From a virus, in the IMG/VR virus record IMGVR_UViG_3300046543_000451, positions 5,376 through 69,375 of that record: DNA of 64,000 nucleotides; one strand, written 5' to 3'. The translations under genes were made by a program, and so were the position numbers. Within the stretch, counting starts at the first letter, position 1; each line of letters opens with the position of its first letter. This document shows positions 3,226 through 64,000 of the stretch, one piece after another. The notes under the pieces are model-generated. The model was not told where the DNA came from. It saw only the letters and a list, made by a program, of their open reading frames with translations, and made no database searches.

Positions 3226-5006
3226 TCGAGCCCATCTCCGCGTGGTCGAGCAAGAAGGCCCACAAGGCGCTGGGCGGGACGACGGACAAGGCCGCGCGGC
3301 TGGCGATTGCGCTGGGGTCTGTCCGATCGGTGGTCCGGGTCATCGACCGGACCGTGCCGCCCCTGTCGGTGGACTGGGCCAAGGTCACCGACTTGCCCGA
3401 GGGTTCCGCCCGGTCGTCCTCGTACACCGACATGCGGAACGGCCACATCAGGCTCAATCCGCTCCCCATCTTGGACGGCCGGCTCGACCACGGGCGGGCG
3501 CTGGACGTCTGCATCGGCTTCGGCTGCCACGAGGCCAGCCACAGTCAGGAGTCCCGCGACCGGTACGAGTACCTGTTGAAGAAAGACGAGACGGGCAAGG
3601 AGGTCCCGGCGTTCGAGCCGATGCGGATCGCGGCCTATCTCTGGAACGTGGTCGAGGACGTGCGGATCGAGCGCGTCACGTCCGCCGACTGGCCGGGCTT
3701 CGAGCCGTACTTCGACGCCGTCCTGCTCTATATGTGGGATGAGCTGCGTCTCCACCACGACCTGCCGACGACCTACGGTCCCGACGTGGCCGGGAAGCTG
3801 AAGACGGTCTTCCTCGCCTGTCGCTATCCCCACGAGTCCATCACCCTGCCGACCGAGATGCAGGCCGAGGTCCGCTGGTGGCGCGACTGGCAGGCCGACT
3901 ACCTGTCCGACAAAGTCGACACTCCGACCACGATCCGGCGCGGCCTCGACCATCTGGCCGAGGACGAGCAGACGGCTCAGGAACTGGCCGAGATGGCGCA
4001 GGCCGAGCGGGACGAGCGAGCGGCCGGCGAGAAGATCAGGGCGCAGATCGAGCGGCTCATGCGCGAGGGCGTCGAGGGAGCCTATGGGGTCTGCATCGAC
4101 CAGAACGGCGAGGTCACGCCGCTCGATGCTGAGACGGCGTCCGAGGTCGATCGACTGGTCCGCGAGGGCCTGATCGAGCACAAGACCATCATCACGACAT
4201 CCGGCGCCAGCAGCCCGACCATCCGGGTCCGCAAGCCCGAAGCGACCAGCCAGTCGGCCCGGGCGTACATCGGCAAGCCCGACCCGACCGTCCACGCCAT
4301 GCGGACGGCGCTGGTCTTCCGTAACTCCGCGCCCCAGCATGACGTGAAGCTGCTGAAGTCCGGGGCCATGGACGACGGCGAGCTGTACCGGTGGGGCATG
4401 GGCGACTTCCGGGTCTTCACCGAGCGCGTGATCGAGAGCAAGCCCGACGTGTTCATGGGCCTGCTGGTCGATCTCTCGGGCAGCATGTGGGGCCGCGGCC
4501 TGCACATCGCCCAGCAACTGGCACAGGTCTTCGTCCACGCCGTCCACGATCAGGAGGGCATCGAGACGGCGGTCTGGGGCCACACCGGGGATGACACGCC
4601 GAACGTGTCGGACGTGTACCGCATCTGGGAGCGCGGCGACCCTCTGAACCGCCTCGGCCTGATCTCGACCCTGCCCCACATGAACAACTACGACGGCGCG
4701 GCCATCTCCATCGTGGTCAAGGAGATGCTGAAGGCCGAGCAGCCCGAGAAGGTGCTGCTGGTCCTTGCCGACGGCCTGCCCGCCGGCGCAGGCTACGGTG
4801 GTCAGCCAGCCGCCAACCACGTCCGGGCGGTGACCCGCTGGGCACTCCGTCAGGGAGTCCGGGTGATCCAGATCGCCATCGACCCCGACGGCTTGGAGAT
4901 CGAGGACCAGAACGCGATGTTCGGGGCAGAGAACGTGGTGCCGTTCAAGGACGTGGCGTCCCTGCCCCGCCAGATGACTGCGATCATGGAGAGGTACTTG
5001 CGATGA
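3222..5006 (+). CDS. Zincin plus VWA domain protein (CobT-like partner of the AAA ATPase)
   Basis: HEASH and NVVEDVRIE in the N-terminal part; MIDAS DLSGS and LVLADGLP in the C-terminal part. Confidence 0.87.
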   Translation: MIEPISAWSSKKAHKALGGTTDKAARLAIALGSVRSVVRVIDRTVPPLSVDWAKVTDLPEGSARSSSYTDMRNGHIRLNPLPILDGRLDHGRALDVCIGFGCHEASHSQESRDRYEYLLKKDETGKEVPAFEPMRIAAYLWNVVEDVRIERVTSADWPGFEPYFDAVLLYMWDELRLHHDLPTTYGPDVAGKLKTVFLACRYPHESITLPTEMQAEVRWWRDWQADYLSDKVDTPTTIRRGLDHLAEDEQTAQELAEMAQAERDERAAGEKIRAQIERLMREGVEGAYGVCIDQNGEVTPLDAETASEVDRLVREGLIEHKTIITTSGASSPTIRVRKPEATSQSARAYIGKPDPTVHAMRTALVFRNSAPQHDVKLLKSGAMDDGELYRWGMGDFRVFTERVIESKPDVFMGLLVDLSGSMWGRGLHIAQQLAQVFVHAVHDQEGIETAVWGHTGDDTPNVSDVYRIWERGDPLNRLGLISTLPHMNNYDGAAISIVVKEMLKAEQPEKVLLVLADGLPAGAGYGGQPAANHVRAVTRWALRQGVRVIQIAIDPDGLEIEDQNAMFGAENVVPFKDVASLPRQMTAIMERYLR

Positions 5007-5263
5007 AGCCCCGACTGGTGAACCTCCGGTTCGGCGACGTGATCCGGGTCGACGAGACACAGATCACGACCAAGCAGCCCGACATCCGGCGCTGGGTCAT
5101 CCTCGGCAAGATGGCAGACGGCCGGTGGCTGACGGTCTACATCGAACCGGGCCTGATGCTCTCCCGGCCGGAGTCGTCGATGCTCATCCACTGGCCGCCC
5201 GACCTGTCTGGCTTCCGGTTCGCCGACGAGGACGAGTCGGTCGTCCCGTACTGGGGACTCTAG
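5003..5263 (+). CDS. Hypothetical protein
   Basis: Coupled ORF. Confidence 0.65.
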   Translation: MKPRLVNLRFGDVIRVDETQITTKQPDIRRWVILGKMADGRWLTVYIEPGLMLSRPESSMLIHWPPDLSGFRFADEDESVVPYWGL

Positions 5264-12360: not shown

Positions 12361-12878
12361 CCGACCTCGTGACCGAGACCCTGCGCCTCAACCGCGACGT
12401 CGGGCGGATCATGCGCCAAGCCTCGATCGTGGCCGAGGCGCCGTTGCGTCTCCACAGCCGCGAGATCGACTCGGGCGGGGCACCGGAGCTGCACCCGGCC
12501 TTCCTGCGCTACCTCGGTGATCGTTCAGTCTGCAAGTGCGGCCGGCCGGCGGTCTGCGCGACGGGCTGCCGGGCGACCCGCTTCGATGAGCATCTCCCGG
12601 CCTGCGAGCCCGCCTGCCCGAAAGGCGACGTCCGCTACCACGCCAGCACCCACAAGAACCAGCCCAACCGGATGAAGCGGGCCCTCCGCGAGATCAGGCG
12701 GCTCAACCCCAAGGCGTACGACCTTGTCTACCTGATCGTCGCCCGGGGCTACTCGTGGGAGAACGCCACCGAGAAGCTGAACGCCGACCACCTGAGCCGC
12801 GGCCAGATGCCCAAGAGCGACGCCGAGTTCGCCGTCCTCTGGATCAGCGGCGCGAGCATGATGATCGGGGCGTTCTGA
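12357..12878 (+). CDS. Putative transcription regulator (Cys-rich region plus sigma-4-like HTH)
   Basis: C-terminal RALREI...YDLVYLIVARGYSWENATEKLN resembles a region-4 HTH; position typical of late activators. Confidence 0.4.
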   Translation: MTDLVTETLRLNRDVGRIMRQASIVAEAPLRLHSREIDSGGAPELHPAFLRYLGDRSVCKCGRPAVCATGCRATRFDEHLPACEPACPKGDVRYHASTHKNQPNRMKRALREIRRLNPKAYDLVYLIVARGYSWENATEKLNADHLSRGQMPKSDAEFAVLWISGASMMIGAF

Positions 12879-13219
12879 TGGAGATCAAGGCCGACGGCTG
12901 GCACCATATCGCCGTCACCAAGGTAGGAAGCGATATCACGGTCTACGACCGCGCTCTCTCGACCGGCGAGGTCACCAAGCATTACGAGAAGGCAGTTCTC
13001 GCCGAAAGCCCTGTCGCCTACTGGCGCCTCGGAGACACGGCCCACCCCGACTGGAAGTTCGGGGACGTGGTTCAACACCCCGACATGGGACCTCCGGTCT
13101 TCATCACCGCTCAGGTTGGTGCGGTGTTCCTTGGCGTCACCCTCGACGGTGGCCTCTTGTACTCGATCCCGGTTGAGATCGCCGGGCAGTGGAAACTCGT
13201 ACCCGAGCCGGACGACTGA
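12878..13219 (+). CDS. Small protein built from LamG-like motifs in permuted order
   Basis: WHHIAVT...VYDRALSTGEVTKHY followed by AVLAESPVAYWRLGD. Confidence 0.6.
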   Translation: MEIKADGWHHIAVTKVGSDITVYDRALSTGEVTKHYEKAVLAESPVAYWRLGDTAHPDWKFGDVVQHPDMGPPVFITAQVGAVFLGVTLDGGLLYSIPVEIAGQWKLVPEPDD

Positions 13220-13791
13220 ATCGAAAGAGCCCCGTCACCCGCCGCATTCGGCAGGTGATCGGGGCGGTAGTCCTGACGGGGCTTCTTTCAGGCAACGTCG
13301 GGGCAGAGCCACCATCGGTGGTGGCGCCAGTCACCGGGTTCCGGCCTGTGGCGACCTACGAGGCACCCCGGCGGGCCGATACGGCGAAAGTGGACCCCAC
13401 GTCCATTCCGGGTCCGCTGGCGACTCCTGAGCCTTCCCACAGACCGCGGCCCGAGGTCCACCAGATCGCTCAGGCCAAGCCAGTGAAGGTGCCGCCGGGT
13501 GGTGGAAGCAGCCGGACCGGCGGCCATCGGATTGTAGGTGTCGCGACGTGGTTCTGTGAGCCGGGCGTCTCGGTCTGCACTCGGGGCTTCCCGGCGTCAG
13601 GAGCCTATGCCGCGGCAGGGCCAGAACTACGGGCTGCTCTCGGTCATTGGCGCGGACGATATGTCTTCGTCAACGGGGTCCGGGTTCAGCTCACCGATTG
13701 GTGCGCCTGTTCTGGCGACCACGTCATCGACGTGTACCACTCGACGTGGCTTCGCATCCCCCATCCGAACCACGCGGTCGTGACGTGGTGA
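13189..13791 (+). CDS. Exported RlpA/DPBB-like (expansin/lytic transglycosylase) protein
   Basis: N-terminal hydrophobic segment, Pro-rich linker, GVATWF...YAAA...V.LTDWCAC...IDV; start uncertain. Confidence 0.65.
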   Translation: METRTRAGRLNRKSPVTRRIRQVIGAVVLTGLLSGNVGAEPPSVVAPVTGFRPVATYEAPRRADTAKVDPTSIPGPLATPEPSHRPRPEVHQIAQAKPVKVPPGGGSSRTGGHRIVGVATWFCEPGVSVCTRGFPASGAYAAAGPELRAALGHWRGRYVFVNGVRVQLTDWCACSGDHVIDVYHSTWLRIPHPNHAVVTW

Positions 13792-14118
13792 CTACGTGTG
13801 CCAGCCGAACCATGACGCGATCCCGAAGAACGCACCAACGAGACCGGCAACAGTCGCGACACCGGTTACGAGGCGCCAACTCCCGCGCCACTCCGAGCGC
13901 CAGCCTTCGAGCGACTTGACCCTGAGTTCGAGGTCCGTGATGTCCCCGGCGTTATCACGCGACCTCTGGAGCAGATTGCGGCCGAGCGGGCTGGCCTCTG
14001 GCTCACTGATGAGCATGTCCCTGATCTCACCGACCGTCTCCTTGATGTCGGAGAGTTCAGACTTGAACTCAGCGAAACGCTCGTCGTCGGCTCGCCGAAG
14101 CGGCGGCGCCGGCGGCAT
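13792..14118 (-). CDS. Coiled-coil protein with C-terminal TM segment (lysis-cassette type)
   Basis: MPPAPPLRRADD...LELRVKSLEGW...VATVAGLVGAFFGIASWFG. Confidence 0.7.
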   Translation of the reverse strand: MPPAPPLRRADDERFAEFKSELSDIKETVGEIRDMLISEPEASPLGRNLLQRSRDNAGDITDLELRVKSLEGWRSEWRGSWRLVTGVATVAGLVGAFFGIASWFGWHT

Positions 14119-14267
14119 CAGATCGACTGGCCGATCTGGTTGAAGATCGAGCTGATCTGGTTCCCGAGGAACACCAAGGCCACGATCGCCACGATGGCGA
14201 TCAGGACGAGGATCAGTGCATATTCGGCGAGACCCTGACCGCGGTCGCGGCGCCAGACTGGCTTCAT
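14118..14267 (-). CDS. flp: Flp/Fap type IVc (Tad) major pilin
   Basis: MKPVWRRDRG|QGLAEYALILVLIAIVAIVALVFLGNQISSIFNQIGQSI: G|Q cleavage site, E+5 Y+6 Flp motif, GAGGAGG RBS. Confidence 0.92.
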   Translation of the reverse strand: MKPVWRRDRGQGLAEYALILVLIAIVAIVALVFLGNQISSIFNQIGQSI

Positions 14268-14500
14268 CTTGTCCTCCTCTGAGAACCCGCCAAGCGGGTC
14301 GAACTCCCGTCGAATGGTTCCCAGCGGCTTGCGCTTGGGCAATGGGACGAACTCCGGCCACAGCTTACGCGCGGCGTCGAGGAGTCCTTCGAGCAGGTAG
14401 CCGAGCAGGAGCTGGGCGTCCCGCCGGTTGGAGCGCAGGATCATCTCCAGCGGCAACGGGGCGAAGTTCACCCGCGCGGCCTTCCCGGTCGTGTTGTCGA

Positions 14501-14878
14501 TCAGGAGGAGGGAGAAGCGGCCTCGCTGGGGCTTGGGGAGGCGGGCACGGATGGCCTCTCCGCCAGCTCCCGGCTCGTCATCGGCAGGCCGCCCCAGCCC
14601 GGGATCACGTGGGGCTGGTACTGGCACGTCGCCGTCACCACCACGACGTCCTTGGTCGTCTCGGAAAGGGAAACGTCGCACCCGGGTAGCTCATGCGCCG
14701 CGAGTGCGTGCCATGAGTCGTTGTCGTGCTGCGCCGCGTACTCGGCCACGACCGCCGTGGTCCGGTCCTGCTGGGCCTTGGAGATCACGAGGAAGCCGAC
14801 CTCGGTGAAGCCGAGGGCGATGAACATCGCCACTGGCAACATGATCGCCATCTCGACGATCGCCTGTCCGCGACTCAC
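14501..14878 (-). CDS. tadE: TadE-like pseudopilin
   Basis: RG|QAIVEMAIMLPVAMFIALGFTEVG...AEYAA...VVVTATCQY. Confidence 0.86.
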   Translation of the reverse strand: MSRGQAIVEMAIMLPVAMFIALGFTEVGFLVISKAQQDRTTAVVAEYAAQHDNDSWHALAAHELPGCDVSLSETTKDVVVVTATCQYQPHVIPGWGGLPMTSRELAERPSVPASPSPSEAASPSS

Positions 14879-15124
14879 TCACCGGGCCTCCGTTCTCTCC
14901 CTGCCGGACGATGCTTGGGGGCCCGACGTTGCAATGTCAATAAGGAATGTTCCGCATTCCGGGCATTCCTTCGGCGGTCGCGGCACGCCGAGGAACCAGA
15001 GCGACCGAGGGAGATGGAGATAGCCGACGTACTCGGCCATTGGCAGCCAGCCGACGATCCGCGAGCCGTTGAGCCTGCGGATCACCGGCGGCTTGCACTT
15101 CGGGCAGGCTAGGACGTGGACCAA
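14879..15124 (-). CDS. Zinc-ribbon hypothetical protein
   Basis: CPKC...CPECG. Confidence 0.55.
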   Translation of the reverse strand: MVHVLACPKCKPPVIRRLNGSRIVGWLPMAEYVGYLHLPRSLWFLGVPRPPKECPECGTFLIDIATSGPQASSGRERTEAR

Positions 15125-15357
15125 CGGAGAGCTGCACGGTACAGCGCCCCGACCACCGCCCCACCGATGGCGACGATCGCCGTCAGGAGCGCAGCCTGAT
15201 CCTGCGGAACACCCGTGACCCCGACTGCGAGCAGGGCGGGCGGGATGCCCATCAGGGCGTCAGCCACGAAGTCCTTGACGAACTTCTTGACCGTGATCGG
15301 TGAGACCCCGGTGCCATCCGTCAGGACGTTGCCGGTGGTCTGGGCTGGACCGGACAT
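15109..15357 (-). CDS. Putative holin
   Basis: 82 aa, two hydrophobic segments, basic C-terminus, GAGGAGG RBS, downstream of the tail genes. Confidence 0.6.
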   Translation of the reverse strand: MSGPAQTTGNVLTDGTGVSPITVKKFVKDFVADALMGIPPALLAVGVTGVPQDQAALLTAIVAIGGAVVGALYRAALRWSTS

Positions 15358-15372
15358 GCCTTCCTCCTCTGG

Positions 15373-15582
15373 TCAGCGGGGGCCGAATGTCGGACCGAAC
15401 CCGCCGCCCACGAAATCGAGAATACCCACAACGATCCCGATCGGCCATGCCCAAGTTCCGAGGAAGTCCCCGATGCTGGTGATGACCGGGACGTGGATCG
15501 CCGGGAGGACTGCCGCGAGAAGCAGGCAGATCAGGCCGGCGACGAAGCCGACCGCGATGGCGTGAATGACGCGGATCAACAT
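15373..15582 (-). CDS. Small two-TM membrane protein
   Basis: Highly hydrophobic, 69 aa. Confidence 0.7.
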   Translation of the reverse strand: MLIRVIHAIAVGFVAGLICLLLAAVLPAIHVPVITSIGDFLGTWAWPIGIVVGILDFVGGGFGPTFGPR

Positions 15583-15591
15583 GGGTCTCTC

Positions 15592-17082
15592 CTATGCGCT
15601 ACTGGGCTGCGTGAGGCAGACCACGTAGAGGAACTTGGTGGAAGCGGGTGCCACGGTCATTACGAACTCGCCCGTATCCGGGTCACTTTCCGTGAAATCC
15701 GTACCGGTTGTGAGCAGGGCGGCGCCCGGAGTCCCGACCGTGCCGATGTAGACCTGAAGGGTCGTCGCGATGTACGGGAAGCGAACGAAGAAGGTCGTGG
15801 TCACGTTGTTGGTCGCCGGCGTCGGGGTCCCCTGATAGATCGCCCCGTAGGCCGCGGTGGTCGAGGAGTCGTTGACCGCGGCCGGGCTGACTTGGATCGT
15901 GTTCAGGCGGACCTGCTGCTTCAAGAGGTAGGCCCAGAGGGTGAACGGGTCCGAGGTCTGAAGGCCGAACGTCCCGTCGAACTGGACGAGGTGGGTTCCG
16001 TCGGTCTCGAAGCCATCGGGGAACGAGATGTGGAGGCTCCGCAGCGGCAGCAACTTCGACACGCTAAAGGTGTTCATGTCGATCTGCATGATGTCGCCCG
16101 CGAGAACGTGCTCTCCGTTCGGGACATCCTCGCTGAACCATGTAAAGGTGAACTGCCACTGCGTATAGCGGAGGCCCTTCTGCTGGCCTTCGATGTCCGC
16201 CCCGGGCGGCCCGTAGAGGATGTCGTGGGCTCGGGCATCGACTCCGTACTGGGTCTTGTAGTGCAACTCGCCGAAGTGCGTCTCGGCATATTGCCAGCGC
16301 CCATAGGTCGACTCGCTGGTGGAGTCCTGCATTCGCGCTACGACCGTGGCCCCAACCCCAGCAAACTCGGAGCCGCCCCAGATCAGCACGTCATTCTCGA
16401 TGTATGAGCCGTCCTCGGTAGCCTCGACCTGCCGAAACCCGATGCTCGTCGGCGGGCTAGGCTGGTCCGAGAAACCCCATGATTTGGTGACATTCTCGAA
16501 CGGCGTATAGATGATCGTCTTGTCAGGAGCGATGTACCAGACGGCACCCCCGAAGAAGGACAGGTTATTGAACGGCTCGCGAAGGGTCTTGCCCTGCTGC
16601 CAGATATCGCCCTCGGGGATCGAGGCGATGTTCTGGATGCCGGACGAATCGAAACCGCTCATGTCGGTATAGGCATCCACGATCTGACGAAGGATCGCGC
16701 CATCGGTCACGAAGGCCGTCAGGTCGATGAGCCCGAGGTAGTTGGAGGTATCGCGCAGGACCCGGCGGTCGAACAGGATGTTGTAGTCGGCGCCGCGGAG
16801 GTTCCACGCCCGGAGCGTGTAGTCGGACAGATTGGCCGTATCGGCGGCCGGCGCGAAGTGGATCATGCTGACCTGAGTCACGAAGCCGCCGAACATCAGC
16901 AGGCCGTCGATGGTCAGGCTGATCTCCTTGCCCGACGAGAACGTCTTGTTCCGTTGCGGATCGCGGATCACGACGTCGAACGAACCCGGCGCCGCGTTCA
17001 TGCTAGTGTCGAAGGAGCAGCGCTCGAAGACGGCCGAGTCCGTCTCGTCCACGCCGTCGATCAAGAGGACGATGATACTCAC
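15592..17082 (-). CDS. Minor tail (hub/tip) protein
   Basis: Follows the tape-measure block; paralogous to the middle of 17079-20564. Confidence 0.78.
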   Translation of the reverse strand: MSIIVLLIDGVDETDSAVFERCSFDTSMNAAPGSFDVVIRDPQRNKTFSSGKEISLTIDGLLMFGGFVTQVSMIHFAPAADTANLSDYTLRAWNLRGADYNILFDRRVLRDTSNYLGLIDLTAFVTDGAILRQIVDAYTDMSGFDSSGIQNIASIPEGDIWQQGKTLREPFNNLSFFGGAVWYIAPDKTIIYTPFENVTKSWGFSDQPSPPTSIGFRQVEATEDGSYIENDVLIWGGSEFAGVGATVVARMQDSTSESTYGRWQYAETHFGELHYKTQYGVDARAHDILYGPPGADIEGQQKGLRYTQWQFTFTWFSEDVPNGEHVLAGDIMQIDMNTFSVSKLLPLRSLHISFPDGFETDGTHLVQFDGTFGLQTSDPFTLWAYLLKQQVRLNTIQVSPAAVNDSSTTAAYGAIYQGTPTPATNNVTTTFFVRFPYIATTLQVYIGTVGTPGAALLTTGTDFTESDPDTGEFVMTVAPASTKFLYVVCLTQPSSA

Positions 17083-20000
17083 GCGGTGTTGCCTCCCCCG
17101 TCAAGGACGTTGCCCGCGCTCGACCAGAAGTTGCCGCCCGAGTTGTAGGTGCCCCGCGACAGCGGGCCGCAGGACCCGTGGCCGTTCGACCCCGAGACGA
17201 CGCCCGAGGCGTTGTTGTTGGGCAGGTCCACGATCGCGTCGACCGTGGCGTCGCAGTTGGTCCCGTTCCAGCCGCTCATCGTGACCCCCGTGGCATCCCC
17301 CCAGATGTAGGCCCAGCGGTGGAGATTCGAGACGGTCCAGTTGTTGGCTGTCAAGCCACTGATGTTCGGGTTGTGGAAGGTCTGGAGGCCGTTGAGGGTC
17401 CGGGCTCCGTCACCGACCACGGTCCAGTCGTTGGCCGTGAGGTTCGTACCGTGGTGGACGAGATCGGAGTTGACGTAGAGGCAATGGCTCTGGTTCTGGC
17501 TCGCGACACCGGAGCAGTTGACGATGTTGAAGCCGTTGAGGGTCATGTGGTCGACCCAGCCGGTGAGGATCAGGCCGAACGAGCCGATGTGGTAGTTCTG
17601 GATCGTGAAACTGCCGCCGGTCCCAGCCGGATCGAAGGTGATGTAGTCCATGACGAAACCCGGCGTGCCGGGGCCCGGCAGCGCGTTGAAGTTGAACGGG
17701 CCATTCGTACCGGCGCCCAGTCCACTCCCGTCCCAGACCACGTTGGCGCCCGAGGCTGGCCGGATCGTCAACGGCCGTGCGGCGCGGCTGACGTTCTTGA
17801 TGTCGAGCTGCCAGTTGTCGTACTGGCCATCCTGCATCTCGATGATGTCGTAGGCCATGTTCCCGAACAGGGAGAGGAAGGCTGCTTCGGTGTTCGGACC
17901 GGTTCCCGGGAAGAAGGCGATGGCGCCGGTCGCGAAGACAGGCGGCAGCGGTCCGGTCGCGGTGTAGGTCGCCGAGACGGTGGTCGTGTCGGAGATCGGG
18001 GTCGCGAGCGTGACCACCCCGGTCGAGGTGTCGACGGTGTAGTCCGTGTTCTCGGCCAGTAGGGAGCCACCGACAGACAGTTTCAGGGAGCCGGTCGCGA
18101 CCGTCCGGGTCAACTGCATCAGGGTGTCGCTGAGATGGCGCAGGATTTCCGTGAAGCCGCCGCCGGAGACCGGGCCCGGGGCCGTGTAGGTGCAGTTGGT
18201 CGGGCCGTTGCCGTTGAAGTCGACCCAGTCGATATTGACACGAGGCACTTCTGGCTGCGGCACGAGGCCGCCGCCGCTATTGGTGCTGATGCCGGTCGGA
18301 CCCGTGATGACCACGCGGTTGATCGTCATGTCGATCGAGACGGGCGTCGTCACGTCCCAAGCATCAGGCTCGACGTCGACCCAAGCCCAACGCTTGGTGC
18401 GAACCCGGGAGTGACTCGGCTCCCACGAGAGCTTGTAGACCATCCACTCGCCACCCGGGGAGTTGACCGGGCACGTCCCGATGTTCGAGTCGTTCTTCAC
18501 CGTGGGCGACGTCGGGCCGTCCATGATGAGCGAGAACTGCTCTCGGGCGGTGCCGGACGTCGGGGTCGGAGCGATCGGGAACTGGTACTTGATAGTGATG
18601 AACCAGTCCGAGGAGCCCATGGCCGGGCCACTGGTCAAGCGTGCGCCGAAGGACTCGGACGGGACGCCGGCCGTTCCGTAGGCGGTGTCTTCCATGACGC
18701 CGCTGCCATTGATGACGCCAAACAACTGGGGGGTGTTGCCGGCGATCGTGTGCCACTGGAAGCCGTTGAGAGAGGTGCTTCCCCAAGCGGCGTTGCCCGG
18801 TGAGACGACGCCATTCGTCAGGGGCAGGAACCGGTCATCGAAGGTGTCGAAGACGTTGGAGAAGTCGGTGCAGACATAGGACGGCGGAACGGTGGTGTTG
18901 GGCGGGACGATGGAGCCGAGCGAGATGCCGGGCAGGGCCGGCAGCTTCCAGCGGAACGGGTCGAAGAACGACCACGGCACGTCGATCTCGTGGGACAGCG
19001 TCAGCTCGTAGCGCGGCACGTCCGGTGCCGGGAAGGTGACCTCCATCTTGCGGATGGGAATGACGGTGTCGTAGCCGAAGACCTCGCTCGTGAAGGCAAC
19101 CTTCTGGGCCGGCAGCAAGCCGTCCTCGAAGGTCACCAGCGTCACGGCGATCCGGTCGTCCTTGGCACCCCGGTGGTGCTCTGGGCTGCCGTTCAGGATG
19201 GAGTCTGCGATCCGGTTGATCGTGCTCTGCTTGTAGACCCCGAATGTCGTCTGGCCGAGCTGCCACAGGCCGTGCTCGGTCTGGCTGGTGGCATCCTGCG
19301 CCCGGGTGAAGACCGGGACGTTGCTGCCGTAGCCGGCGCCCCACGCGAGCACGTCGTTGGCGAGGTTCGTCCCGTCGAACAGGACTTCCATCTCACGGTA
19401 GCCCTTGGTCGTCACCCCATCGGGCACGTCGGACAGGCCGAACGGTGCATCCGGGGTGTCGGCATCGACGTAGGCGAACTCCCAGTTGGGCCGGATGTAG
19501 TAGATCGAGGCGGGCAGCGCGGTGATGCTCTGCATCGCCTGACCCCACGTATCGCTGCCTTCCCACGCCCGCGCCTGCTGGTCCTCGTTGATCCGGGCGA
19601 CCGCCTCCACGCCGGTCGAGGTATCGAGTCCGTCACCGGTCAGGTCGAGCCAGCCCGCGAACAGGTCGCCGATCGCGGTGACGTCGGGGGTGAAGGGCGG
19701 GTAGAGGGGCGCCAGTACGTTCGCCGGGTCCGACTGGTTGAAGACGATCCGTCGGGCGAACAGGGTATTGAGGTCCGTCCCGACGATGTCGAAGAACCGG
19801 GTCGGCCCGAAGTCGTCCACGTTCAGCGCCGGGAAAGCGTAGACACGCTTGACGTTCGTCACGAACCCCGTCCAGACCCGACCACCGTTGATGATGAGTT
19901 CGAGGCTCTGGCCGGGGACGTAGCTCAGGACGCCAAGATCGTCACGGACCCGGATGCTGGCCTCGCCGGGTACGCCGTTGACCGCCGACATGAAGCGGGC

Positions 20001-20564
20001 CGTCTCGAACAAGACTGCCCCTGCCCCGAGGATTTCGACCACGTTGGCGCCGTCGATGAAGATGGCCGGACCGGTCGTCGTGGGCGTGCTGTGCTGGATC
20101 GCGGCATCCGTCGCGCTGACCGAGTCACTGGTCGTTCGGTGCAGGATGGCCGTGCGAGTCGCGATACCAGATGCAACGACATGGTCAGTCGTCGAGAGGA
20201 CGTACCCGCGAACGACCGTGTCGCTGGTGGAGATGGCCTCGGTGGCCGAGCGGTGGAGGACAGCGGTCCGCCGTGCGACGTCGACCGCGAAGACCGTCGC
20301 CTGCGTGGCGGTCCGGCTCTGCCCGCGCGACCGGATCGCGACGTCACTGGTCGAGATGGCCTCGGTCGTGGTCCGGGCGACTTGGTTGATGACCGCGACA
20401 TCAGATGTCGTGACGGTCTGGGAGACCGTGCGATGGAGCGACGCGCTCCGGGTGGCCGACTGGGACGCGGTCAGGGAGTCAGTGGCAGTCCGGGTGACAT
20501 TGTTGCCGGCGTCCTCTTGGAACGCATCACTCTGGAAGGCGTTGGACTGGAACGCCCCAGCCAC
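17079..20564 (-). CDS. Large tail-tip protein: Thr-rich repeats, hub domain and C-terminal beta-helix
   Basis: Immediately after the tape measure; AFQxxAFQ start, about 7 repeats of TxxxxxxDxAxR, hub domain, Asn/Gly-rich beta-helix. Confidence 0.8.
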   Translation of the reverse strand: MAGAFQSNAFQSDAFQEDAGNNVTRTATDSLTASQSATRSASLHRTVSQTVTTSDVAVINQVARTTTEAISTSDVAIRSRGQSRTATQATVFAVDVARRTAVLHRSATEAISTSDTVVRGYVLSTTDHVVASGIATRTAILHRTTSDSVSATDAAIQHSTPTTTGPAIFIDGANVVEILGAGAVLFETARFMSAVNGVPGEASIRVRDDLGVLSYVPGQSLELIINGGRVWTGFVTNVKRVYAFPALNVDDFGPTRFFDIVGTDLNTLFARRIVFNQSDPANVLAPLYPPFTPDVTAIGDLFAGWLDLTGDGLDTSTGVEAVARINEDQQARAWEGSDTWGQAMQSITALPASIYYIRPNWEFAYVDADTPDAPFGLSDVPDGVTTKGYREMEVLFDGTNLANDVLAWGAGYGSNVPVFTRAQDATSQTEHGLWQLGQTTFGVYKQSTINRIADSILNGSPEHHRGAKDDRIAVTLVTFEDGLLPAQKVAFTSEVFGYDTVIPIRKMEVTFPAPDVPRYELTLSHEIDVPWSFFDPFRWKLPALPGISLGSIVPPNTTVPPSYVCTDFSNVFDTFDDRFLPLTNGVVSPGNAAWGSTSLNGFQWHTIAGNTPQLFGVINGSGVMEDTAYGTAGVPSESFGARLTSGPAMGSSDWFITIKYQFPIAPTPTSGTAREQFSLIMDGPTSPTVKNDSNIGTCPVNSPGGEWMVYKLSWEPSHSRVRTKRWAWVDVEPDAWDVTTPVSIDMTINRVVITGPTGISTNSGGGLVPQPEVPRVNIDWVDFNGNGPTNCTYTAPGPVSGGGFTEILRHLSDTLMQLTRTVATGSLKLSVGGSLLAENTDYTVDTSTGVVTLATPISDTTTVSATYTATGPLPPVFATGAIAFFPGTGPNTEAAFLSLFGNMAYDIIEMQDGQYDNWQLDIKNVSRAARPLTIRPASGANVVWDGSGLGAGTNGPFNFNALPGPGTPGFVMDYITFDPAGTGGSFTIQNYHIGSFGLILTGWVDHMTLNGFNIVNCSGVASQNQSHCLYVNSDLVHHGTNLTANDWTVVGDGARTLNGLQTFHNPNISGLTANNWTVSNLHRWAYIWGDATGVTMSGWNGTNCDATVDAIVDLPNNNASGVVSGSNGHGSCGPLSRGTYNSGGNFWSSAGNVLDGGGNTA

Positions 20565-23500
20565 TTAGCCGATCCCTCTGAGCCCCTTCAGCGAGGCATC
20601 GCGGCCCAGTGCCTTCGTGACGGCCTGCGTGACCTTTTCGAGACTCGCCTGCGAGTCGGTGTGAATGTCGCCGTTGAACTGGACGACCACGCTGCCGCCG
20701 CCGTTGCCGCCGAAGCCGTTGACGGCGCGCGGATTGCGGAGGATCGCGACTGTCTCGCCTTGGGCCTCACCGACGGTCATGGTCGTCTTGCCGGTGGTCG
20801 TCCCGACGAAGCCGGACGCGAAGTGCGGCGTCAGGTTGCCACTCTTGCCGTTGTCGTAGTAGGAGCCGATCGCCGCGAACTTGGCGAGTTGGCTGCTCAG
20901 ACCCTTGATGACGATGCCGAACTGGGCCAGCACCTGCACCGCGACCGTCTCCAGCGCCTTGCCCGCGGCGGCTTCGAGTTGCTGGATGTCGGCGAACGCC
21001 TGACCGACCAACTTGTCCACGGCGTTCAAGTAGGTCTGGACCTTGGCGACGTTCTGCTGCTGGAGTTGCTGGAGCCGGAGGAGTTGCTGCTCGCGGGCGG
21101 CCGTGTCGATCGTGACCTGTCGGCCACGGGTGAGCAAGGCGATCTGGCGGACGAGGTCGGCCCCTTGGCGGAGGTTGCCGATGTCGACGATCTTCACCTG
21201 ATTGGAGAACTGCTGCTTCTGGATGTTCAGTTGCTTCTGGGCGTACTCGGCCTCGATCTTCGCCTCGGCGATCCGGGCCTGCCGCTCCTCCGGGGTGATG
21301 CCCGGGGCTTGGAACCCGGCGAGGGCCTGCTGGAAGTTGATCTGGCGCTGGGAGAGGTTGAACTGGAGCTGCTGGCCCTGCCGTGACAGGAGCAAGTTCT
21401 GGTGTTCGAGGATGCCCAGCTCGGACTCGCCGGCGCCGAGGTTCTTTCCGATCAGGCCGCCGATGTCGGACAGGTTGCGCTTGGCGATCAGGAGTTGGAA
21501 GTTGTACTGGGCGACCTGATACTGGGCCTGCTCGTTGCTGATCCCGGCTTGGATGCTGGCGATCTGCTGGCCGGTCGCCTTGACCGCGTTGAGGGCGGCA
21601 TCAAACGCCTGACCGGCGGCCTGACCGAAGTTCTGGACGATGGCCGGGCGGTAGGTATTCTCGATGATGTCCTGACCCTGAGCGTAGTAGGCGTTCAGTT
21701 GCTGCTGTTCGGTCTGGGCGGCCTTCAACTGGCCGACGACCTTGCCCTGATCCGACCGGGCGATACCGGTCCCGACCGGAACGTTCGGGTTGGCAAGCGC
21801 CGCGAGGGCCGCCTGTGCGGGCAACTGCGTCCCAATGGCGAACTGGGTCTGGCGGTTGGCCGCCGCGATCTCGCTGGGACGGACATATGCCTGCTGGGAC
21901 TGGATGGCTGGGAGGTTGGCGGCAGCCTCGCGCTGGCGCTGCTGCTCTGCGAACAGGTTGGCTCGCCCCAACTGCTCGGGCGGCGTGATGCTCAGGCCGA
22001 TGCCAACCTGCTCCAAGCCCTTCGTGGCATCCGTGACTGACGTGGTGAAGCCACCGGGACCGACAAGGACTTCGTTCGACTTGGCCGCGAGGTCCTTCAG
22101 TTCCTGCGGCAAGTTCGAGTTGGCGACGCGCTGTGCCTGATCCCCAACGGCCTGCGCGAAGTGAAACGCCTCCTTGGTCGAAAGACCTTGGGCCTGCGCC
22201 CCACGCTTGGCGGCTTGGTTGTAGGTATCCTCCAACTTCGCCCGGTCATCGGCCAGTTGCGCCAAGCGGGCGGGCCGCTGGTCGTTCGGGGTCTGGAGGT
22301 TCTGCTGCTGCTGCGAGGTCAGGTATTGACGGCCGATCGTTGGTGTCTGCGGCGTGATGAGTCGACCCGATGAGAGATCGCTGACCGCGCTCGTGATGTC
22401 GCCGAACGAACTCTTGATCGTCTCAGCCAGACCGGCTCCGCCACCGAGTTGCTGGGCGAACAGCGCACCGCCGCCAAGTCCACCGTAGCCGCCGAACAGG
22501 CCCTGTGGGGTCTGCTGGTTGGCCCCGATCGCCGCCCGGAACAAGCCACCGGTCTGACCTGCCGCCGCCGCGCCGGCCTTGACCTGTGTCGTCAGCCTCA
22601 ACTGGTTGTCGATCGCCTCTGCGGCGCTGCTGGAAAGACTCGCCTGAGCATCTGCGGTCGCCAGCACGGCATTGACATTGCCGTGGGCCGCTGCTGTCTG
22701 CTGGGCCAGTGCCTGCGTGACCTTGTTGCTGACCGCTCCGAAGCCGGACGCCTTGTCAATGGCGTCGCCAATGGCCGGTGCGACAGCCGAAAGGCCGACA
22801 TCAACGATCTTGATGGCAGCACCGAAGGCCAGACCGGCGGCCGTGACGGCGAGCAGGTTCCGGGCAAGGTTCAGCGGGTTCTTGCTGAACTTGTCGAGAT
22901 TGGCCTGCGCCTTATCCTGTCGTTCGAGGGCAGCCGCCTCATCGGCAAGAGCCTTCTTGTAGTCGGGCCGCTGGCGGATGGCCTCAGCCTCTTTCCGTAG
23001 CGTGTCAGCCCGACGCCCGCCGACGACATTCGCCTCGGCTTCCTTGTCGATCGCCAGCTTGTCGATGCTGGAACGGAAGGACGTCGCCGAACCAAGGTCA
23101 CGACTTGATTCCGACAACTCCTTCTCCAGCCGCAGGCGCTCGCGTCCCGGGCCGATGATGAATCCGCCAGCGGTCGACGCCGCCGTGCGCTGTGTCCGGC
23201 CGGCGGTGAGGATATTGGCCTCGTTCCGGGCGGACAGGACGTCGGCGTTCCGCCGGATGGCGGCCTGCTGGATTTCCCGGTTGGCCTCCGCCCGCCGGAT
23301 CGTTCGCTCCTCACGAAGCGCCTGACTCCTGAGGCGGTTTTCCTCGTTGACACGCGCTCGGGCCACGACCTGCTCGACTCGAACCTGCTCGCGGTCGGTC
23401 AGGGGTGACGTCCGTGGGGCCGGGCGTGGACCGAGCCCCGGCAGGATGGATTGCGGCTGGTTCGGCTGGTCGTCCCGACCGGGGACATAGACCACGGCCG

Positions 23501-24302
23501 AGGTCTGAGCAGGGGTTCGGAAGACCCGGTTGCTCCGGGTCAGCGCGTCCTGATCGAGTTGCGGCGTTGCCGGACGTCCCTCGTCTTCGGGCGCCGGTCC
23601 AGCCACTGCAACCCGCCGTCCTCGTCCACCGCCGCCGCGCCCACCACGACCGCCAGCGCCAGCAGCGGCCGGGGCAACAGGAGAGGCTGCGATCTCCTTC
23701 AGAGTGGCCGCAATGTCGTTCAGGGTCCCGAGGACGGTCTGGAGTTCGGCATTAGCCGCTTGGGCAGGGATGTGGAGTTCGAGCGGCTTCTCGCTCTGGA
23801 CTCGCAGTTCGTTGATCTGCGCCGTCACCTGCTGGGTCGAGACATGGACCGGGATGTCGACTGGCTCGTCGCCCAGCGTCTTGGCGATCTGTGCTCGCAT
23901 CTCGGGGCTCTTGATGTCCCCGAGTTCGATCCCCTTCGTTTGTCCGGCCCCGCCACGGAGCCCGAGGGCGCTGGCTTCCTGCTCGGCCCTTCGGAGCGCC
24001 TTGACATTGCTGGCACTGAGGGCGCCAGTCAGCTTGGCGAGTTGTGCCTCGATCGCATGGAGTTCAGGAGATGCTGCGGCTGCGGCTGGAGTTCCGACAG
24101 TCGTGGACGCCGCAACCGCCCCACCACGCTGGGCCTGAGCAGCCGTCGGCTGCTGGACCTGTACGCCGATCGTCGCGAAGCGGGGTTCCTTGGCCCACGC
24201 CTCGATGATCCGGTCGGCCTCCTCCAGATCGCCGGGCAGGCGGGAATGGGAGGCACCGATTTGGACGCTGATGCCGCCGATATCTTCGGCTTCCATATTC
24301 AT
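20565..24302 (-). CDS. Tape measure protein
   Basis: 1245 aa, Ala/Gln-rich and helical; C-terminal HFASG...VGEAQGETVAI; follows the chaperone. Confidence 0.87.
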   Translation of the reverse strand: MNMEAEDIGGISVQIGASHSRLPGDLEEADRIIEAWAKEPRFATIGVQVQQPTAAQAQRGGAVAASTTVGTPAAAAASPELHAIEAQLAKLTGALSASNVKALRRAEQEASALGLRGGAGQTKGIELGDIKSPEMRAQIAKTLGDEPVDIPVHVSTQQVTAQINELRVQSEKPLELHIPAQAANAELQTVLGTLNDIAATLKEIAASPVAPAAAGAGGRGGRGGGGRGRRVAVAGPAPEDEGRPATPQLDQDALTRSNRVFRTPAQTSAVVYVPGRDDQPNQPQSILPGLGPRPAPRTSPLTDREQVRVEQVVARARVNEENRLRSQALREERTIRRAEANREIQQAAIRRNADVLSARNEANILTAGRTQRTAASTAGGFIIGPGRERLRLEKELSESSRDLGSATSFRSSIDKLAIDKEAEANVVGGRRADTLRKEAEAIRQRPDYKKALADEAAALERQDKAQANLDKFSKNPLNLARNLLAVTAAGLAFGAAIKIVDVGLSAVAPAIGDAIDKASGFGAVSNKVTQALAQQTAAAHGNVNAVLATADAQASLSSSAAEAIDNQLRLTTQVKAGAAAAGQTGGLFRAAIGANQQTPQGLFGGYGGLGGGALFAQQLGGGAGLAETIKSSFGDITSAVSDLSSGRLITPQTPTIGRQYLTSQQQQNLQTPNDQRPARLAQLADDRAKLEDTYNQAAKRGAQAQGLSTKEAFHFAQAVGDQAQRVANSNLPQELKDLAAKSNEVLVGPGGFTTSVTDATKGLEQVGIGLSITPPEQLGRANLFAEQQRQREAAANLPAIQSQQAYVRPSEIAAANRQTQFAIGTQLPAQAALAALANPNVPVGTGIARSDQGKVVGQLKAAQTEQQQLNAYYAQGQDIIENTYRPAIVQNFGQAAGQAFDAALNAVKATGQQIASIQAGISNEQAQYQVAQYNFQLLIAKRNLSDIGGLIGKNLGAGESELGILEHQNLLLSRQGQQLQFNLSQRQINFQQALAGFQAPGITPEERQARIAEAKIEAEYAQKQLNIQKQQFSNQVKIVDIGNLRQGADLVRQIALLTRGRQVTIDTAAREQQLLRLQQLQQQNVAKVQTYLNAVDKLVGQAFADIQQLEAAAGKALETVAVQVLAQFGIVIKGLSSQLAKFAAIGSYYDNGKSGNLTPHFASGFVGTTTGKTTMTVGEAQGETVAILRNPRAVNGFGGNGGGSVVVQFNGDIHTDSQASLEKVTQAVTKALGRDASLKGLRGIG

Positions 24303-58741: not shown

Positions 58742-59551
58742 TTAGACCTTGACGGCGCTGACGCCGGCGCCGATGTGGACGTACTTGCCCGCGAACTTCC
58801 CAGCGGTCACCCGGACGACAGTGGCGTCCTTGCCAGCGCACTGGGCGACCTTGTGGGGAGTGCCGCACGGGGCACTCGACGGCTTGGAACCCCAGTGATA
58901 CGAGGTCCAGCTCTTGATGCACTTGCCGGCGAAGTTGGCGACCTTGACGGTGGCCCCGGCGCTGATGTGGAGGCGATAGGTGGCTGGCGGCGTGGTGACC
59001 GCCTTGGGCACCGCGTGGTCGAAGACACCGAACCAGATGCCGCTGTTCAGCTTCGCGGCGTAGCGGTGGAGGATGTAGTCGTACTCCCAGCGGCCGGTCT
59101 TGCAGATCGGATCGTCGATCCAATGCTGGCGGAGGCCGTTGACGACGCGGGTCGCCGGGTGGATGCCGATGCAGTGGTTCCCGTTGAAGGCGCCCGAGCA
59201 AGTGCTGTTGCTGAACTGGTCACTGTCGCCCTGACAGTCGACGTAGTGGCCGGTCGCGAGGAACGAGGTGAGCGCCGCCCAACCGTCACCGTCGTGGTTC
59301 GTGAACGCGACGCCCATCTTGGCTGCCGCGTGGTCGGCGTCGACCATGGACCAGCCGGGCGTGACCGGATCGGACTCCTGACTCCGCGGGATCAGGGCCC
59401 GGACCTGTCCTCCGCTCATGTTGACTTGGCCACCGGTCGCAGCGTTCGCTCCGTTGGCGACGCTCGTGGGGGTGCAGTTCTGGTCCTCGTAGACCGATCC
59501 GTCGAACTGCGTCCGATGTGGGTTCAGGTAGTAGCCGCCGAGCGTTGCCAT
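58742..59551 (-). CDS. Putative endolysin (C39-like cysteine peptidase)
   Basis: Q...NCTPTS.A, GNHCIGI, WIDDP catalytic pattern; basic C-terminal putative binding domain. Confidence 0.68.
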   Translation of the reverse strand: MATLGGYYLNPHRTQFDGSVYEDQNCTPTSVANGANAATGGQVNMSGGQVRALIPRSQESDPVTPGWSMVDADHAAAKMGVAFTNHDGDGWAALTSFLATGHYVDCQGDSDQFSNSTCSGAFNGNHCIGIHPATRVVNGLRQHWIDDPICKTGRWEYDYILHRYAAKLNSGIWFGVFDHAVPKAVTTPPATYRLHISAGATVKVANFAGKCIKSWTSYHWGSKPSSAPCGTPHKVAQCAGKDATVVRVTAGKFAGKYVHIGAGVSAVKV

Positions 59552-63904: not shown

Positions 63905-64000
63905 ATGACGAGACTCCCCGGACAGTCGGATATACCCGTCGCTGGGGTGATGCTGACAAGCGAGCGCGGGCGGCACAGAAGCTTTGGACCGACCGAGGCA

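What the first reader, a model, noticed from the sequence alone, without database searches (positions are those of the whole stretch)
14118..14878. Phage encodes its own Tad pilus subunits (Flp pilin plus TadE pseudopilin) at the end of the late operon
Seen: a 49-aa Flp pilin (RG|QGLAEYALIL, E+5/Y+6, strong RBS) and a TadE-like protein (RG|QAIVEMAIMLP). Both lie on the late strand among holin-like genes, each overlapping or abutting a flanking phage gene. No Tad ATPase, secretin or prepilin peptidase is in the window. Known: Tad/Flp pili are receptors for several phages, and these subunits need host TadV/CpaA processing. Inference: the phage supplies subunits to the host pilus machine. This could change or jam the receptor (superinfection exclusion), protect progeny from adsorbing to debris, or alter host adhesion. 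It is the best candidate here for an undescribed system.
Basis: partly seen in the sequence, partly recalled or inferred. Interest (0 to 1): 0.85.

Follow-up and report, generated by a model that had tools for sequence, protein, structure and literature searches.

The report
Phage-borne Tad pilin cassette
An uncultured soil phage carries genes for two subunits of its host's adhesive Tad pilus, one of them joined to an unusual extra domain, probably so that it can remodel or block the host's pili, a trick so far described only for another type of pilus.

Summary
A TadE-like pseudopilin (14501-14878, Pfam TadE above cut-off) and a Flp pilin (14118-14267; G|QGLAEY; 27-30 of 39 mature residues identical to Chloroflexota Flp) lie at the end of the late strand of a 69-kb phage. 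The phage has no Tad ATPase, platform, peptidase or secretin. The Flp is not a free 49-aa gene. It is in frame with a conserved upstream domain of about 100 aa ("mid", invariant PxWRR) in a 187-aa ORF that overlaps the tadE 3' end. About 30 protein clusters carry mid. In most it is fused to Flp. In others it is a separate ORF whose stop overlaps the start of a nearly leaderless Flp.

The cassette TadE / mid+Flp / coiled-coil membrane protein recurs in four other DNA contexts, three of them viral records, always beside holin- or lysin-like genes where flanks are visible. It is absent from the closest near-complete relative. It is under purifying selection, and independent metagenomes confirm the sequence.

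Use of the host Tad machine is well supported. The purpose is inferred: receptor masking is most likely, and a role in lysis is the main rival. I class it as a new variant of phage-encoded pilus subunits (P-FimU, P-PilA). First-stage notes of this scan describe similar pairs in other phages.

The parts
14501..14878 (-). TadE-like pseudopilin, 125 aa; N-terminal MSRG|QAIVEMAI (Glu +5), one hydrophobic helix, then a short domain with two Cys
   Evidence: Pfam TadE 25.5 bits > 22.9. Relatives of 69% and 51% identity in L001 and L009. dN/dS 0.18-0.37 in the part not overlapped by the next ORF. Only 6 clusters found by word search.
14118..14681 (-). 187-aa ORF: long-leader Flp precursor (N-terminal region overlapping tadE, then the mid domain, then the Flp pilin)
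   Evidence: Open frame. GC3 shows coding in this frame from about 14560. 63% identity over all 188 aligned residues in L001. A start codon at the same place in relatives: GTG in the window and L001, ATG in L009 and G410. No indels in independent contigs.
14241..14549 (-). 'mid' domain, residues 45-147 of the ORF: RLPKP..GRFSLLLID..TGKA.RV...PL.LE.ILRS.RRD..LL.GYL...AA.KLWPEF, a variable linker, then an invariant Trp in PxWRR just before the cleavage site
   Evidence: Alignments A2 and A5. About 30 of the 150 best representatives carry it. AlphaFold2 on 31 sequences: mean pLDDT 84, a beta-hairpin plus two helices. No Pfam, PHROG, NCBIfam or PADLOC match.
14118..14267 (-). Flp pilin part (49 aa from the internal ATG with GAGGAGGA upstream). 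Mature pilin QGLAEY...GQSI is 14121-14237 (39 aa); the stop is 14118-14120
   Evidence: Flp_Fap E 1.7e-5, 25.0 bits, below the cut-off. 27-30 of 39 identical to Chloroflexota Flp. Sources name relatives Flp pilin, and several carry PF04964.
13792..14118 (-). 108-aa protein: cytoplasmic coiled coil with an invariant ..SEPE.SPLGR.LL.. motif and a C-terminal membrane helix. Its ATG overlaps the Flp stop (TGATG). It follows Flp in every copy of the cassette
   Evidence: Homologues directly after Flp in L001, L009, L097 and G410. 12 clusters in the protein collection. Alignment A6. No family match. Atlas nearest named cluster is XhlA, 0.91 with 159 shared features: a lead only.
14879..15124 (-). 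Context: 81-aa zinc-ribbon protein abutting tadE. Not part of the cassette, because relatives without the cassette have it too
   Evidence: Weak zinc-ribbon matches. Homologues in L003, L004 and L005, which lack TadE and Flp.
15109..15357 (-). Context: 82-aa membrane protein, holin-like by look only. Homologues lie near the cassette in L097 and G410
   Evidence: tblastn hit in L007. Similar ORFs by eye at L097 10847-11104 and L098 5506-5835. No family match.
15373..15582 (-). Context: 69-aa membrane protein directly after the 496-aa tail protein
   Evidence: ORF and GC3. Homologue in L003.

Best explanation
This is an accessory cassette of a tailed phage whose host is probably a soil Chloroflexota bacterium. 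It encodes structural subunits of the host's Tad (type IVc) pilus and none of the machine.

Three translationally coupled genes make:
1. A short TadE-like minor pilin.
2. A Flp major pilin synthesised behind a conserved leader of about 140 aa. The leader holds a folded ~60-aa domain and a PxWRR motif next to the G|Q cleavage site.
3. A tail-anchored coiled-coil membrane protein.

Shown: what the parts are, their conservation and selection, the lack of a phage-encoded machine, and the presence of TadE genes and an A24 peptidase in candidate hosts.

Inferred: the host prepilin peptidase cuts at G|Q and releases the leader domain into the cytoplasm. The host Tad ATPase and platform then build the phage Flp and TadE into, or onto, host filaments. 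The filament-core part of the pilin (first 25 residues) is almost host-identical, while the outward-pointing C-terminal 14 residues differ. The result would be pili with a phage-specified surface or tip, or blocked pili.

The most likely pay-off is to stop phages, whether competitors or the phage's own progeny, from adsorbing to Tad pili of an infected or lysogenic cell. P-FimU does this for type IVa pili. My odds: about 0.75 that the subunits use the host Tad machine, and about 0.4 that the purpose is receptor masking or exclusion. The confidence given here is for the whole statement, purpose included.
For: - Motifs and HMMs identify the two subunits.
- The mature Flp has the same length (39 aa) as cellular Flp and is 27-30 of 39 identical to them. 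There are only 1-3 differences in the first 25 residues; the rest fall in the last 14 (10 of 80 loci compared).
- 68 of the 80 best cellular Flp loci, and the top 24, are titled as Chloroflexota.
- All 5 of 5 candidate host genomes have TadE matches over the cut-off. All 5 have an A24 peptidase match, 4 of them over the cut-off.
- The phage record has no T2SSE, T2SSF, A24 or secretin match.
- The cassette recurs in L001/G406, L009, L097/G407 and G410 under purifying selection.
- It is absent from the closest relatives by the tail protein: L003-L006, and G408, which is 98% complete.
- Precedent: prophage FimU-like and PilA-like proteins are built into type IVa pili and block adsorption (PMC12952977, abstract and section 17 read).
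Against: - No expression, processing or assembly data exist, and no RNA run was listed.
- Flp_Fap is below Pfam's cut-off.
- The cassette sits at the end of the late strand, tightly packed with tail and lysis-type genes and with no promoter-like site of its own. Late expression is a poor time for superinfection exclusion.
- Wherever flanks are visible the cassette lies beside holin- or lysin-like genes, and its third gene resembles XhlA-type lysis proteins in architecture. This fits a lysis role as well.
- No integrase or resolvase was found in this phage, so a lysogenic-conversion reading does not apply here.
- The host is inferred from Flp similarity alone. A portal search of 401 Chloroflexota genomes gave only 7 distant matches at 22-28% identity (one of the 7 is the unpublished G150).
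- It is not known whether Tad pili are a receptor for this phage or for any phage of this host.
Confidence: 0.42

Rival explanations
1. Lysis or egress device. The pilin-like proteins and the XhlA-like partner act with the holin-like genes at the end of infection. They might perturb the membrane, or they might turn the host Tad machine into a piston or channel that helps a secreted lysin or the virions through the envelope.
For: The cassette lies in or next to the lysis-type block in all 4 of 4 contexts with visible flanks: the window, L001, L097 and G410. Translation is coupled to a coiled-coil, C-terminal-helix protein whose nearest named Atlas cluster is XhlA. In the relative L004 the same position holds lysin-like and holin-like genes and a different membrane coiled-coil protein. 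No lysin-like gene is seen next to the tail genes in this phage.
Against: A membrane-damaging peptide would not need to keep the G|Q..EY site, the exact 39-aa length and a near host-identical filament core. It would also not need a TadE partner. No XhlA HMM match. I know of no precedent, and the searches found none. The end of a late operon is also a classic site for accessory genes unrelated to lysis (established for lambda lom and bor; recalled).
Confidence: 0.22
2. Host-behaviour conversion. The phage pilins change adhesion, aggregation or surface sensing of the infected or lysogenic cell, for example to detach or clump cells. The benefit would have nothing to do with phage adsorption.
For: Tad pili mediate adherence and surface sensing (abstracts of PMC11067988 and PMC7196804). 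In L001 the cassette lies directly after an integrase and an excisionase-like gene, a typical place for conversion genes.
Against: This phage shows no integrase or resolvase. The cassette is also carried by a 131-kb phage within its tail and lysis-type block. A benefit within one lytic cycle is hard to see.
Confidence: 0.13
3. Machine jamming. The oversized leader, or the free mid protein, blocks the host prepilin peptidase or the Tad platform, so that host pili are simply lost. The pilins would serve mainly as bait.
For: The most conserved feature of mid is PxWRR, directly before the cleavage site. In split forms mid ends in an acidic ..DDDGG[IV] tail that resembles the end of host Flp leaders (..RRDEDG|Q).
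Against: Pure jamming does not explain purifying selection on the mature pilin and on TadE, nor the leaderless Flp genes kept in the split forms. The acidic GG tail also encodes the ribosome-binding site of the next gene, which may be why it is conserved.
Confidence: 0.15
4. Artefact or passenger: host DNA mis-joined to a phage contig, or decaying genes picked up by chance.
For: IMG/VR classes the record as linear and CheckV puts it at 60% complete.
Against: Phage genes lie on both sides. Contigs from four other samples are identical and bridge all junctions. The cassette is in three other viral records and one short metagenome contig. dN/dS is 0.2-0.6. mid was not found in 401 Chloroflexota genomes beyond 5 marginal hits.
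Confidence: 0.03

Closest known systems
P-FimU of Pseudomonas aeruginosa F10-like prophages, and the P-PilA proteins of Xylella prophages and Pseudomonas phages (Sztanko et al., Cell Rep 2026, PMC12952977; abstract and section 17 read)
   Same: A phage-encoded copy of a host pilus structural subunit without the assembly machine. P-FimU is incorporated into the host pilus and blocks adsorption of pilus-binding phages. PilA-like genes also occur in non-temperate phages.
   Different: Those are type IVa pilins with globular heads. Here it is a Tad (type IVc) major pilin plus a TadE minor pilin. The pilin carries a conserved ~140-aa leader, or is leaderless next to a free leader protein. There is a third conserved membrane protein, and the cassette lies in the late, lysis-type block. 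Function here is untested. The paper's supplementary Table S3, which lists the phage PilA-like groups, could not be opened and might bear on novelty.
Cellular Flp prepilins and TadE pseudopilins of tad loci (Pfam PF04964 and PF07811), e.g. the Flp genes of Chloroflexota MAGs in L010-L089
   Same: G|Q(G/S)L(A/V)EY site, a 39-aa purely helical mature pilin, 69-77% identity in the mature part. TadE N-terminal motif above the Pfam cut-off.
   Different: Host leaders in the loci I read are about 15-25 residues. The phage precursor has up to 148, and the split forms have 2-3. There is no adjacent tadA, tadB, tadC or tadV. The TadE is a short, rare form with only 6 clusters.
Phage proteins that switch off type IV pili by binding the machine: Zip (listing and abstract only, 10.1101/2024.03.05.583538); Tip and Aqs1 (recalled, not looked up)
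   Same: Phage interference with a pilus that serves as a receptor, as a form of superinfection exclusion.
   Different: Those are inhibitors with no likeness to pilus subunits. Here the phage supplies the subunits. Only the mid domain could act as such an inhibitor, and that is untested.
XhlA of the Bacillus PBSX lysis cassette (Pfam PF10779)
   Same: The third gene has the same size and the same layout: a coiled coil followed by one C-terminal membrane helix, next to holin-like genes. It is the Atlas nearest named cluster (0.91).
   Different: No HMM match. Only 159 shared features, which the tool treats as a lead. It has its own invariant SEPE.SPLGR motif. XhlA's role in lysis is recalled, not looked up.

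Membership tests
Flp/Fap pilin (PF04964) | Match to the family HMM at the curated cut-off | tested here: inconclusive
   25.0 bits against a cut-off of 32.2, E 1.7e-5. Only profile positions 12-45 of 46 match, because the leader is unlike. Close relatives P0003, P0005 and P0008 carry PF04964 in the precomputed table.
Flp/Fap pilin (PF04964) | Prepilin site G|XXXXEY followed by one hydrophobic helix; small mature pilin without a globular head | tested here: met
   RG|QGLAEYALILVLIAIVAIVALVFLG...; mature part is 39 aa. AlphaFold2 gives a single helix, residues 151-186, pLDDT 81-95.
Flp/Fap pilin (PF04964) | Sequence kinship with pilins of bona fide tad-bearing genomes | tested here: met
   27-30 of 39 identical to Flp genes in 10 Chloroflexota loci. 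Genomes holding five of the loci (four of them among the ten compared) have TadE and A24 peptidase matches.
Flp/Fap pilin (PF04964) | Cleavage by a TadV/CpaA-type peptidase and polymerisation by TadA | not testable with these tools
   Needs co-expression and pilus preparations.
TadE-like pseudopilin (PF07811) | Match to the family HMM at the curated cut-off, and the N-terminal G|Q...E(+5) hydrophobic segment | tested here: met
   25.5 bits against 22.9, residues 4-35 on profile positions 1-32 of 43; MSRG|QAIVEMAI. The HMM covers only the N-terminal segment. The rest of the protein has no family.
Phage-encoded pilus subunit acting in superinfection exclusion (P-FimU type) | Phage-borne homologue of a host pilus subunit, with no assembly machine in the phage | tested here: met
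   Phage identity from portal, terminase and Prim-Pol matches.
Phage-encoded pilus subunit acting in superinfection exclusion (P-FimU type) | Incorporation into the host pilus and a block of phage adsorption | not testable with these tools
   No cultured host. No RNA run was listed.
XhlA (PF10779), for the third gene | Match to the family HMM | tested here: not met
   No XhlA match at E up to 1. The Atlas likeness of 0.91 with 159 shared features is only a lead. I do not file it as XhlA.

The most novel reading that the evidence does not exclude
The mid domain is a detached or oversized Flp leader that works as a take-over device. It would be anchored at the membrane face by PxWRR and would present a leader-like acidic ..GG end. 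In that position it occupies the host prepilin peptidase or the Tad platform, so host prepilins are shut out. The phage's own pilins are either released from mid by one cut or made almost leaderless (MRG|Q, MA|Q), and they are the ones assembled. The phage would thus re-programme the host Tad machine to build a phage-specified filament at the time of lysis, for receptor masking or for egress. The fused and split gene forms would be two solutions to the same problem.
Probability: 0.15. Interest if true: 0.85.

Novelty: new variant of a known kind. Interest (0 to 1): 0.62.

Why it matters
Replacement of a host surface part by a phage-encoded copy has been shown experimentally for a type IVa minor pilin (P-FimU). 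If Tad pilins are used in the same way, the principle extends to the most widespread adhesive pilus class and to soil Chloroflexota, a phylum with almost no phage biology.

The leader domain is a new, confidently folded family tied to a prepilin cleavage site. Fused and split forms both exist. This gives a direct handle on how prepilins are recognised by the peptidase and platform, and a possible natural inhibitor or re-programmer of Tad machines.

The steady link to lysis-type genes raises the testable idea that pilus machines take part in phage release.

Tried and rejected
Family searches. PHROGs gave no match for 10 of 10 proteins of the region. NCBIfam and PADLOC gave nothing usable for 8 of 8. 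blastn and tblastn against 50,697 GenBank phage records gave no match for the region, TadE or the 187-aa ORF.

Structure. Fold searches with the 187-aa model matched only the long helix (best Z 4.9; Foldseek viral E >= 0.44). Searches with the mid-only model gave Foldseek PDB E >= 1.6 and best VIA Z 3.5. No fold is assigned, and this does not show that the fold is new. The Atlas gave no usable hit for mid. Complex prediction for mid with the cytoplasmic part of the third protein returned no verdict.

Wider searches for the cassette. A mid search of genome contigs with exact words found none. The mid profile in 401 Chloroflexota genomes gave 5 marginal hits (E 2.8e-4 to 9.9e-4, three with internal stops), which I take as chance. 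L002 was a 19-residue chance match.

Readings rejected.
- Programmed -1 frameshift joining TadE to mid: I found no slippery heptamer conserved between the window and L001 (read by eye). A start codon is conserved instead.
- Sequencing frameshift or chimera: rejected.
- Own promoter or terminator: none found inside the cassette.

Other. No RNA holder was listed. Endolysin: relatives' lysin-like proteins gave one weak hit, at 59045-59530, with no Pfam support. Literature: searches found no paper describing phage-encoded Flp or TadE; one search showed that the single hit is unrelated. Supplements were closed, so Table S3 of PMC12952977 was not seen.
Full report
What the record is. The window is bases 5376-69375 of a single 69,375-base virus record. 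It encodes a portal, a large terminase, a Prim-Pol, a DnaB-like ATPase and an HK97 gp10-like tail component. The first and last 177 bases are a direct repeat with one mismatch. The genome is therefore probably complete, although IMG/VR lists it as linear and CheckV puts it at 60%. Its closest near-complete relative, G408, has 70,378 bases. Genes run on the plus strand up to about 13.8 kb of the window and on the minus strand from there on. The finding therefore lies at the 3' end of the long minus-strand block, directly after three large tail proteins.

The observation. On the minus strand the order is:
- a 496-aa tail protein (15592-17082);
- a 69-aa membrane protein (15373-15582);
- an 82-aa membrane protein (15109-15357);
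- an 81-aa zinc-ribbon protein (14879-15124);
- the TadE-like gene (14501-14878);
- the Flp frame (14118-14681);
- a 108-aa protein (13792-14118).

These genes abut or overlap. TadE passes the Pfam cut-off (25.5 against 22.9 bits). Flp_Fap is significant but below the cut-off (25.0 against 32.2 bits, E 1.7e-5), because only the mature part matches. Both proteins have Gly at -1 and Glu at +5, and Flp has Tyr at +6. The record has no T2SSE ATPase, T2SSF platform, A24 peptidase or secretin, and only one Flp. It also has no integrase or resolvase.

The gene model has to change. Third-position GC follows the tadE frame down to about 14570. It then follows the Flp frame without a break from about 14560 to 14118. 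No stop codon lies between 14681 and the Flp ATG at 14267. The viral contig L001 keeps the whole 187-codon frame open, at 63% identity. In a collection of 5.8 billion proteins, 15 of the 38 hits to this ORF carry the upstream part. A profile search of 1.84 billion representatives found 12,201 proteins at E <= 0.001, most of them plain Flp of 56-100 aa. About 30 of the 150 best extend into the upstream domain.

The conserved core is RLPKP..GRFSLLLID..TGKA.RV..PL.LE.ILRS.RRD..LLxGYL....AA.KLWPEF. A variable linker follows, and then PxWRR with an invariant Trp just before the pilin's G|Q. Folded alone with 31 sequences, this domain gives a confident model: mean pLDDT 84, above 93 for residues 10-70, with a beta-hairpin, a short helix and a long helix. 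I found no structural or family match for it.

Fused and split forms. In the window, L001, L097 and most protein clusters, the domain and the pilin form one ORF. In L009 and in the 131-kb phage G410, the domain ORF ends in an acidic ..DDDGGI or ..DDTGAI tail. Its stop overlaps the ATG of a separate Flp gene whose leader is only MRG or MA. Four further clusters end the same way (P0056, P0058, P0061, P0158). In L009 that tail also encodes the GGAGG ribosome-binding site of Flp. In the window a strong GAGGAGGA-ATG lies inside the linker, so a short 49-aa Flp may be made as well as the 187-aa precursor. In other fused relatives that Met is missing or shifted, so the fusion is the conserved product.

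No canonical start lies just before the conserved domain. Instead, a start codon sits at the same place inside tadE's ELPGCDV codons in four DNA copies: GTG in the window and L001, ATG in L009 and G410. Gene callers begin several relatives there. The ORF therefore overlaps the tadE 3' end out of frame by about 175-220 bases. In L097 the two genes do not overlap, and the precursor has a different, longer N-terminus. I looked for a conserved -1 slippery site and found none. Contigs from four other samples show no indel.

A conserved three-gene cassette. TadE, the domain plus Flp, and a coiled-coil protein with one C-terminal membrane helix occur in the same order in five DNA contexts:
- the window;
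- L001/G406, 91% complete, where the cassette lies directly after an excisionase-like gene and an integrase and before lysin-like and holin-like genes;
- L009, a 2.4-kb contig;
- L097/G407, between tail-fibre-like and lysin- or holin-like genes;
- G410, 100% complete by CheckV, after a tail-protein paralogue, a holin-like gene and a zinc-ribbon gene.

The third protein has an invariant ..SEPE.SPLGR.LL.. motif and only 12 clusters of relatives. Its nearest named Atlas neighbour is XhlA, which is a lead only. Pairwise dN/dS among the window, L001 and L009 is 0.18-0.37 for TadE (non-overlapped part), 0.31-0.60 for the domain, 0.20-0.45 for mature Flp and 0.41-0.52 for the third gene, with dS of 0.5-1.4.

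The cassette is accessory. L003-L006 share the 496-aa tail protein at 56-62% identity but have no TadE, domain or Flp. The record of L004 (G408, 98% complete) has no TadE match anywhere. In L004 the same position holds lysin-like genes, three small membrane proteins, the zinc-ribbon gene and a different membrane coiled-coil protein.

Not an artefact. Logan contigs of four runs from other samples and studies tile 12800-16200 at 100% identity. They bridge every gene junction and show no indels. One X3 contig differs at eight nearby bases around 14400-14417 and probably belongs to a variant strain.

Host and kinship of the pilin. Of the 80 best cellular loci with a similar Flp, 68 are titled as Chloroflexota lineages, including the top 24. 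In the 10 that I compared, the mature pilin has the same 39 residues in length. It is 27-30 of 39 identical, with 1-3 changes in the first 25 residues and the rest in the last 14. Host leaders in the loci I read are ordinary, about 15-25 residues ending in ..RRDEDG|Q or similar. None of the 80 loci holds the domain, the short TadE or the third gene. The domain was not found in 401 sampled Chloroflexota genomes beyond chance-level hits. Five candidate host genomes all have TadE genes and an A24 peptidase match. The host call rests on the pilin alone, because portal homologues in 401 genomes were all distant.

How it most likely works. A pilin that keeps the cleavage site, the exact length and a near host-identical core, together with a minor pilin and no machine, is best explained as a subunit made to be handled by the host's peptidase and Tad ATPase. 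[quoted passage not shown] The phage-specific residues would therefore lie on the filament surface.

The nearest tested precedent is P-FimU, a prophage copy of a type IVa minor pilin. It is built into the pilus and blocks phages that bind its tip. The same paper lists PilA-like genes in temperate and virulent phages (PMC12952977). By analogy I favour receptor masking or exclusion. The late position, the tight coupling to lysis-type genes in every visible context and the XhlA-like partner keep a role in lysis or egress open. The leader domain invites a third idea, take-over or jamming of the peptidase or platform, which I give as the most novel reading. None of these functions can be tested with the tools at hand.

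Novelty. I found no paper on phage-encoded Flp or TadE. There were no PHROG families for these proteins and no relatives in GenBank phages. The scan's own first-stage notes report Flp/TadE pairs in other phages. One of them, e1-6169731, is the G410 phage, which I reached independently. Another note had already remarked on the open N-terminal extension of this very Flp (e1-6181822). I therefore class the finding as a new variant of a known kind, phage-encoded pilus subunits. Its own new element is a leader-domain family that exists fused to, or split from, the pilin.

Noticed in passing
G000 bases 1-177 and 69199-69375 (the second copy is window 63824-64000): A 177-base direct terminal repeat with one mismatch. 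The genome is probably complete, although IMG/VR lists it as linear and CheckV gives 60%.
   Followed up: partly
window 14501-14681; L001 3379-3553; L009 1137-1359; L098 4681-4870: The 5' end of the leader-domain ORF overlaps the tadE 3' end out of frame by about 175-220 bases in four copies. A start codon is conserved inside tadE's ELPGCDV codons. In L097 the genes do not overlap. It is not settled whether the overlapped 45 codons are translated.
   Followed up: partly
L098 (G410:C1:106000-116000) 3922-5076: A 131-kb phage carries the cassette in split form. Its 43-aa Flp starts MA|QSLVEY, and its TadE has Ala rather than Gly before the Gln. It is unclear whether a prepilin peptidase is needed for these at all.
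   Followed up: partly
window 13189-13791 (+): A 200-aa protein with an N-terminal signal-like segment converges on the cassette. It has homologues next to the lysis-type block in L007 and L004. No Pfam match. By eye it recalls RlpA-type double-psi barrel proteins and might be the phage's wall hydrolase; this is recalled, not tested.
   Followed up: no
window 15592-24302 and 58742-59551: No lysin-like gene follows the tail genes in this phage, unlike in relatives L004 and L005. The only weak likeness to a relative's lysin-like protein is far away, at 59045-59530 (24% identity, E 2.7e-5), with no Pfam support.
   Followed up: partly
L001 1-2640: In the 38-kb viral contig the cassette lies directly after a RuvC-like gene, a secreted protein like the one at window 13189-13791, an excisionase-like gene and a 380-aa ORF that I read by eye as a tyrosine integrase (no family search was run on it). 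The same cassette therefore sits in an apparently temperate phage and in an apparently virulent one.
   Followed up: no
window 14400-14417: One contig of run X3 differs at eight bases within 18, inside the leader-domain coding region. The other three runs are identical to the window. This is probably a co-occurring strain variant.
   Followed up: no
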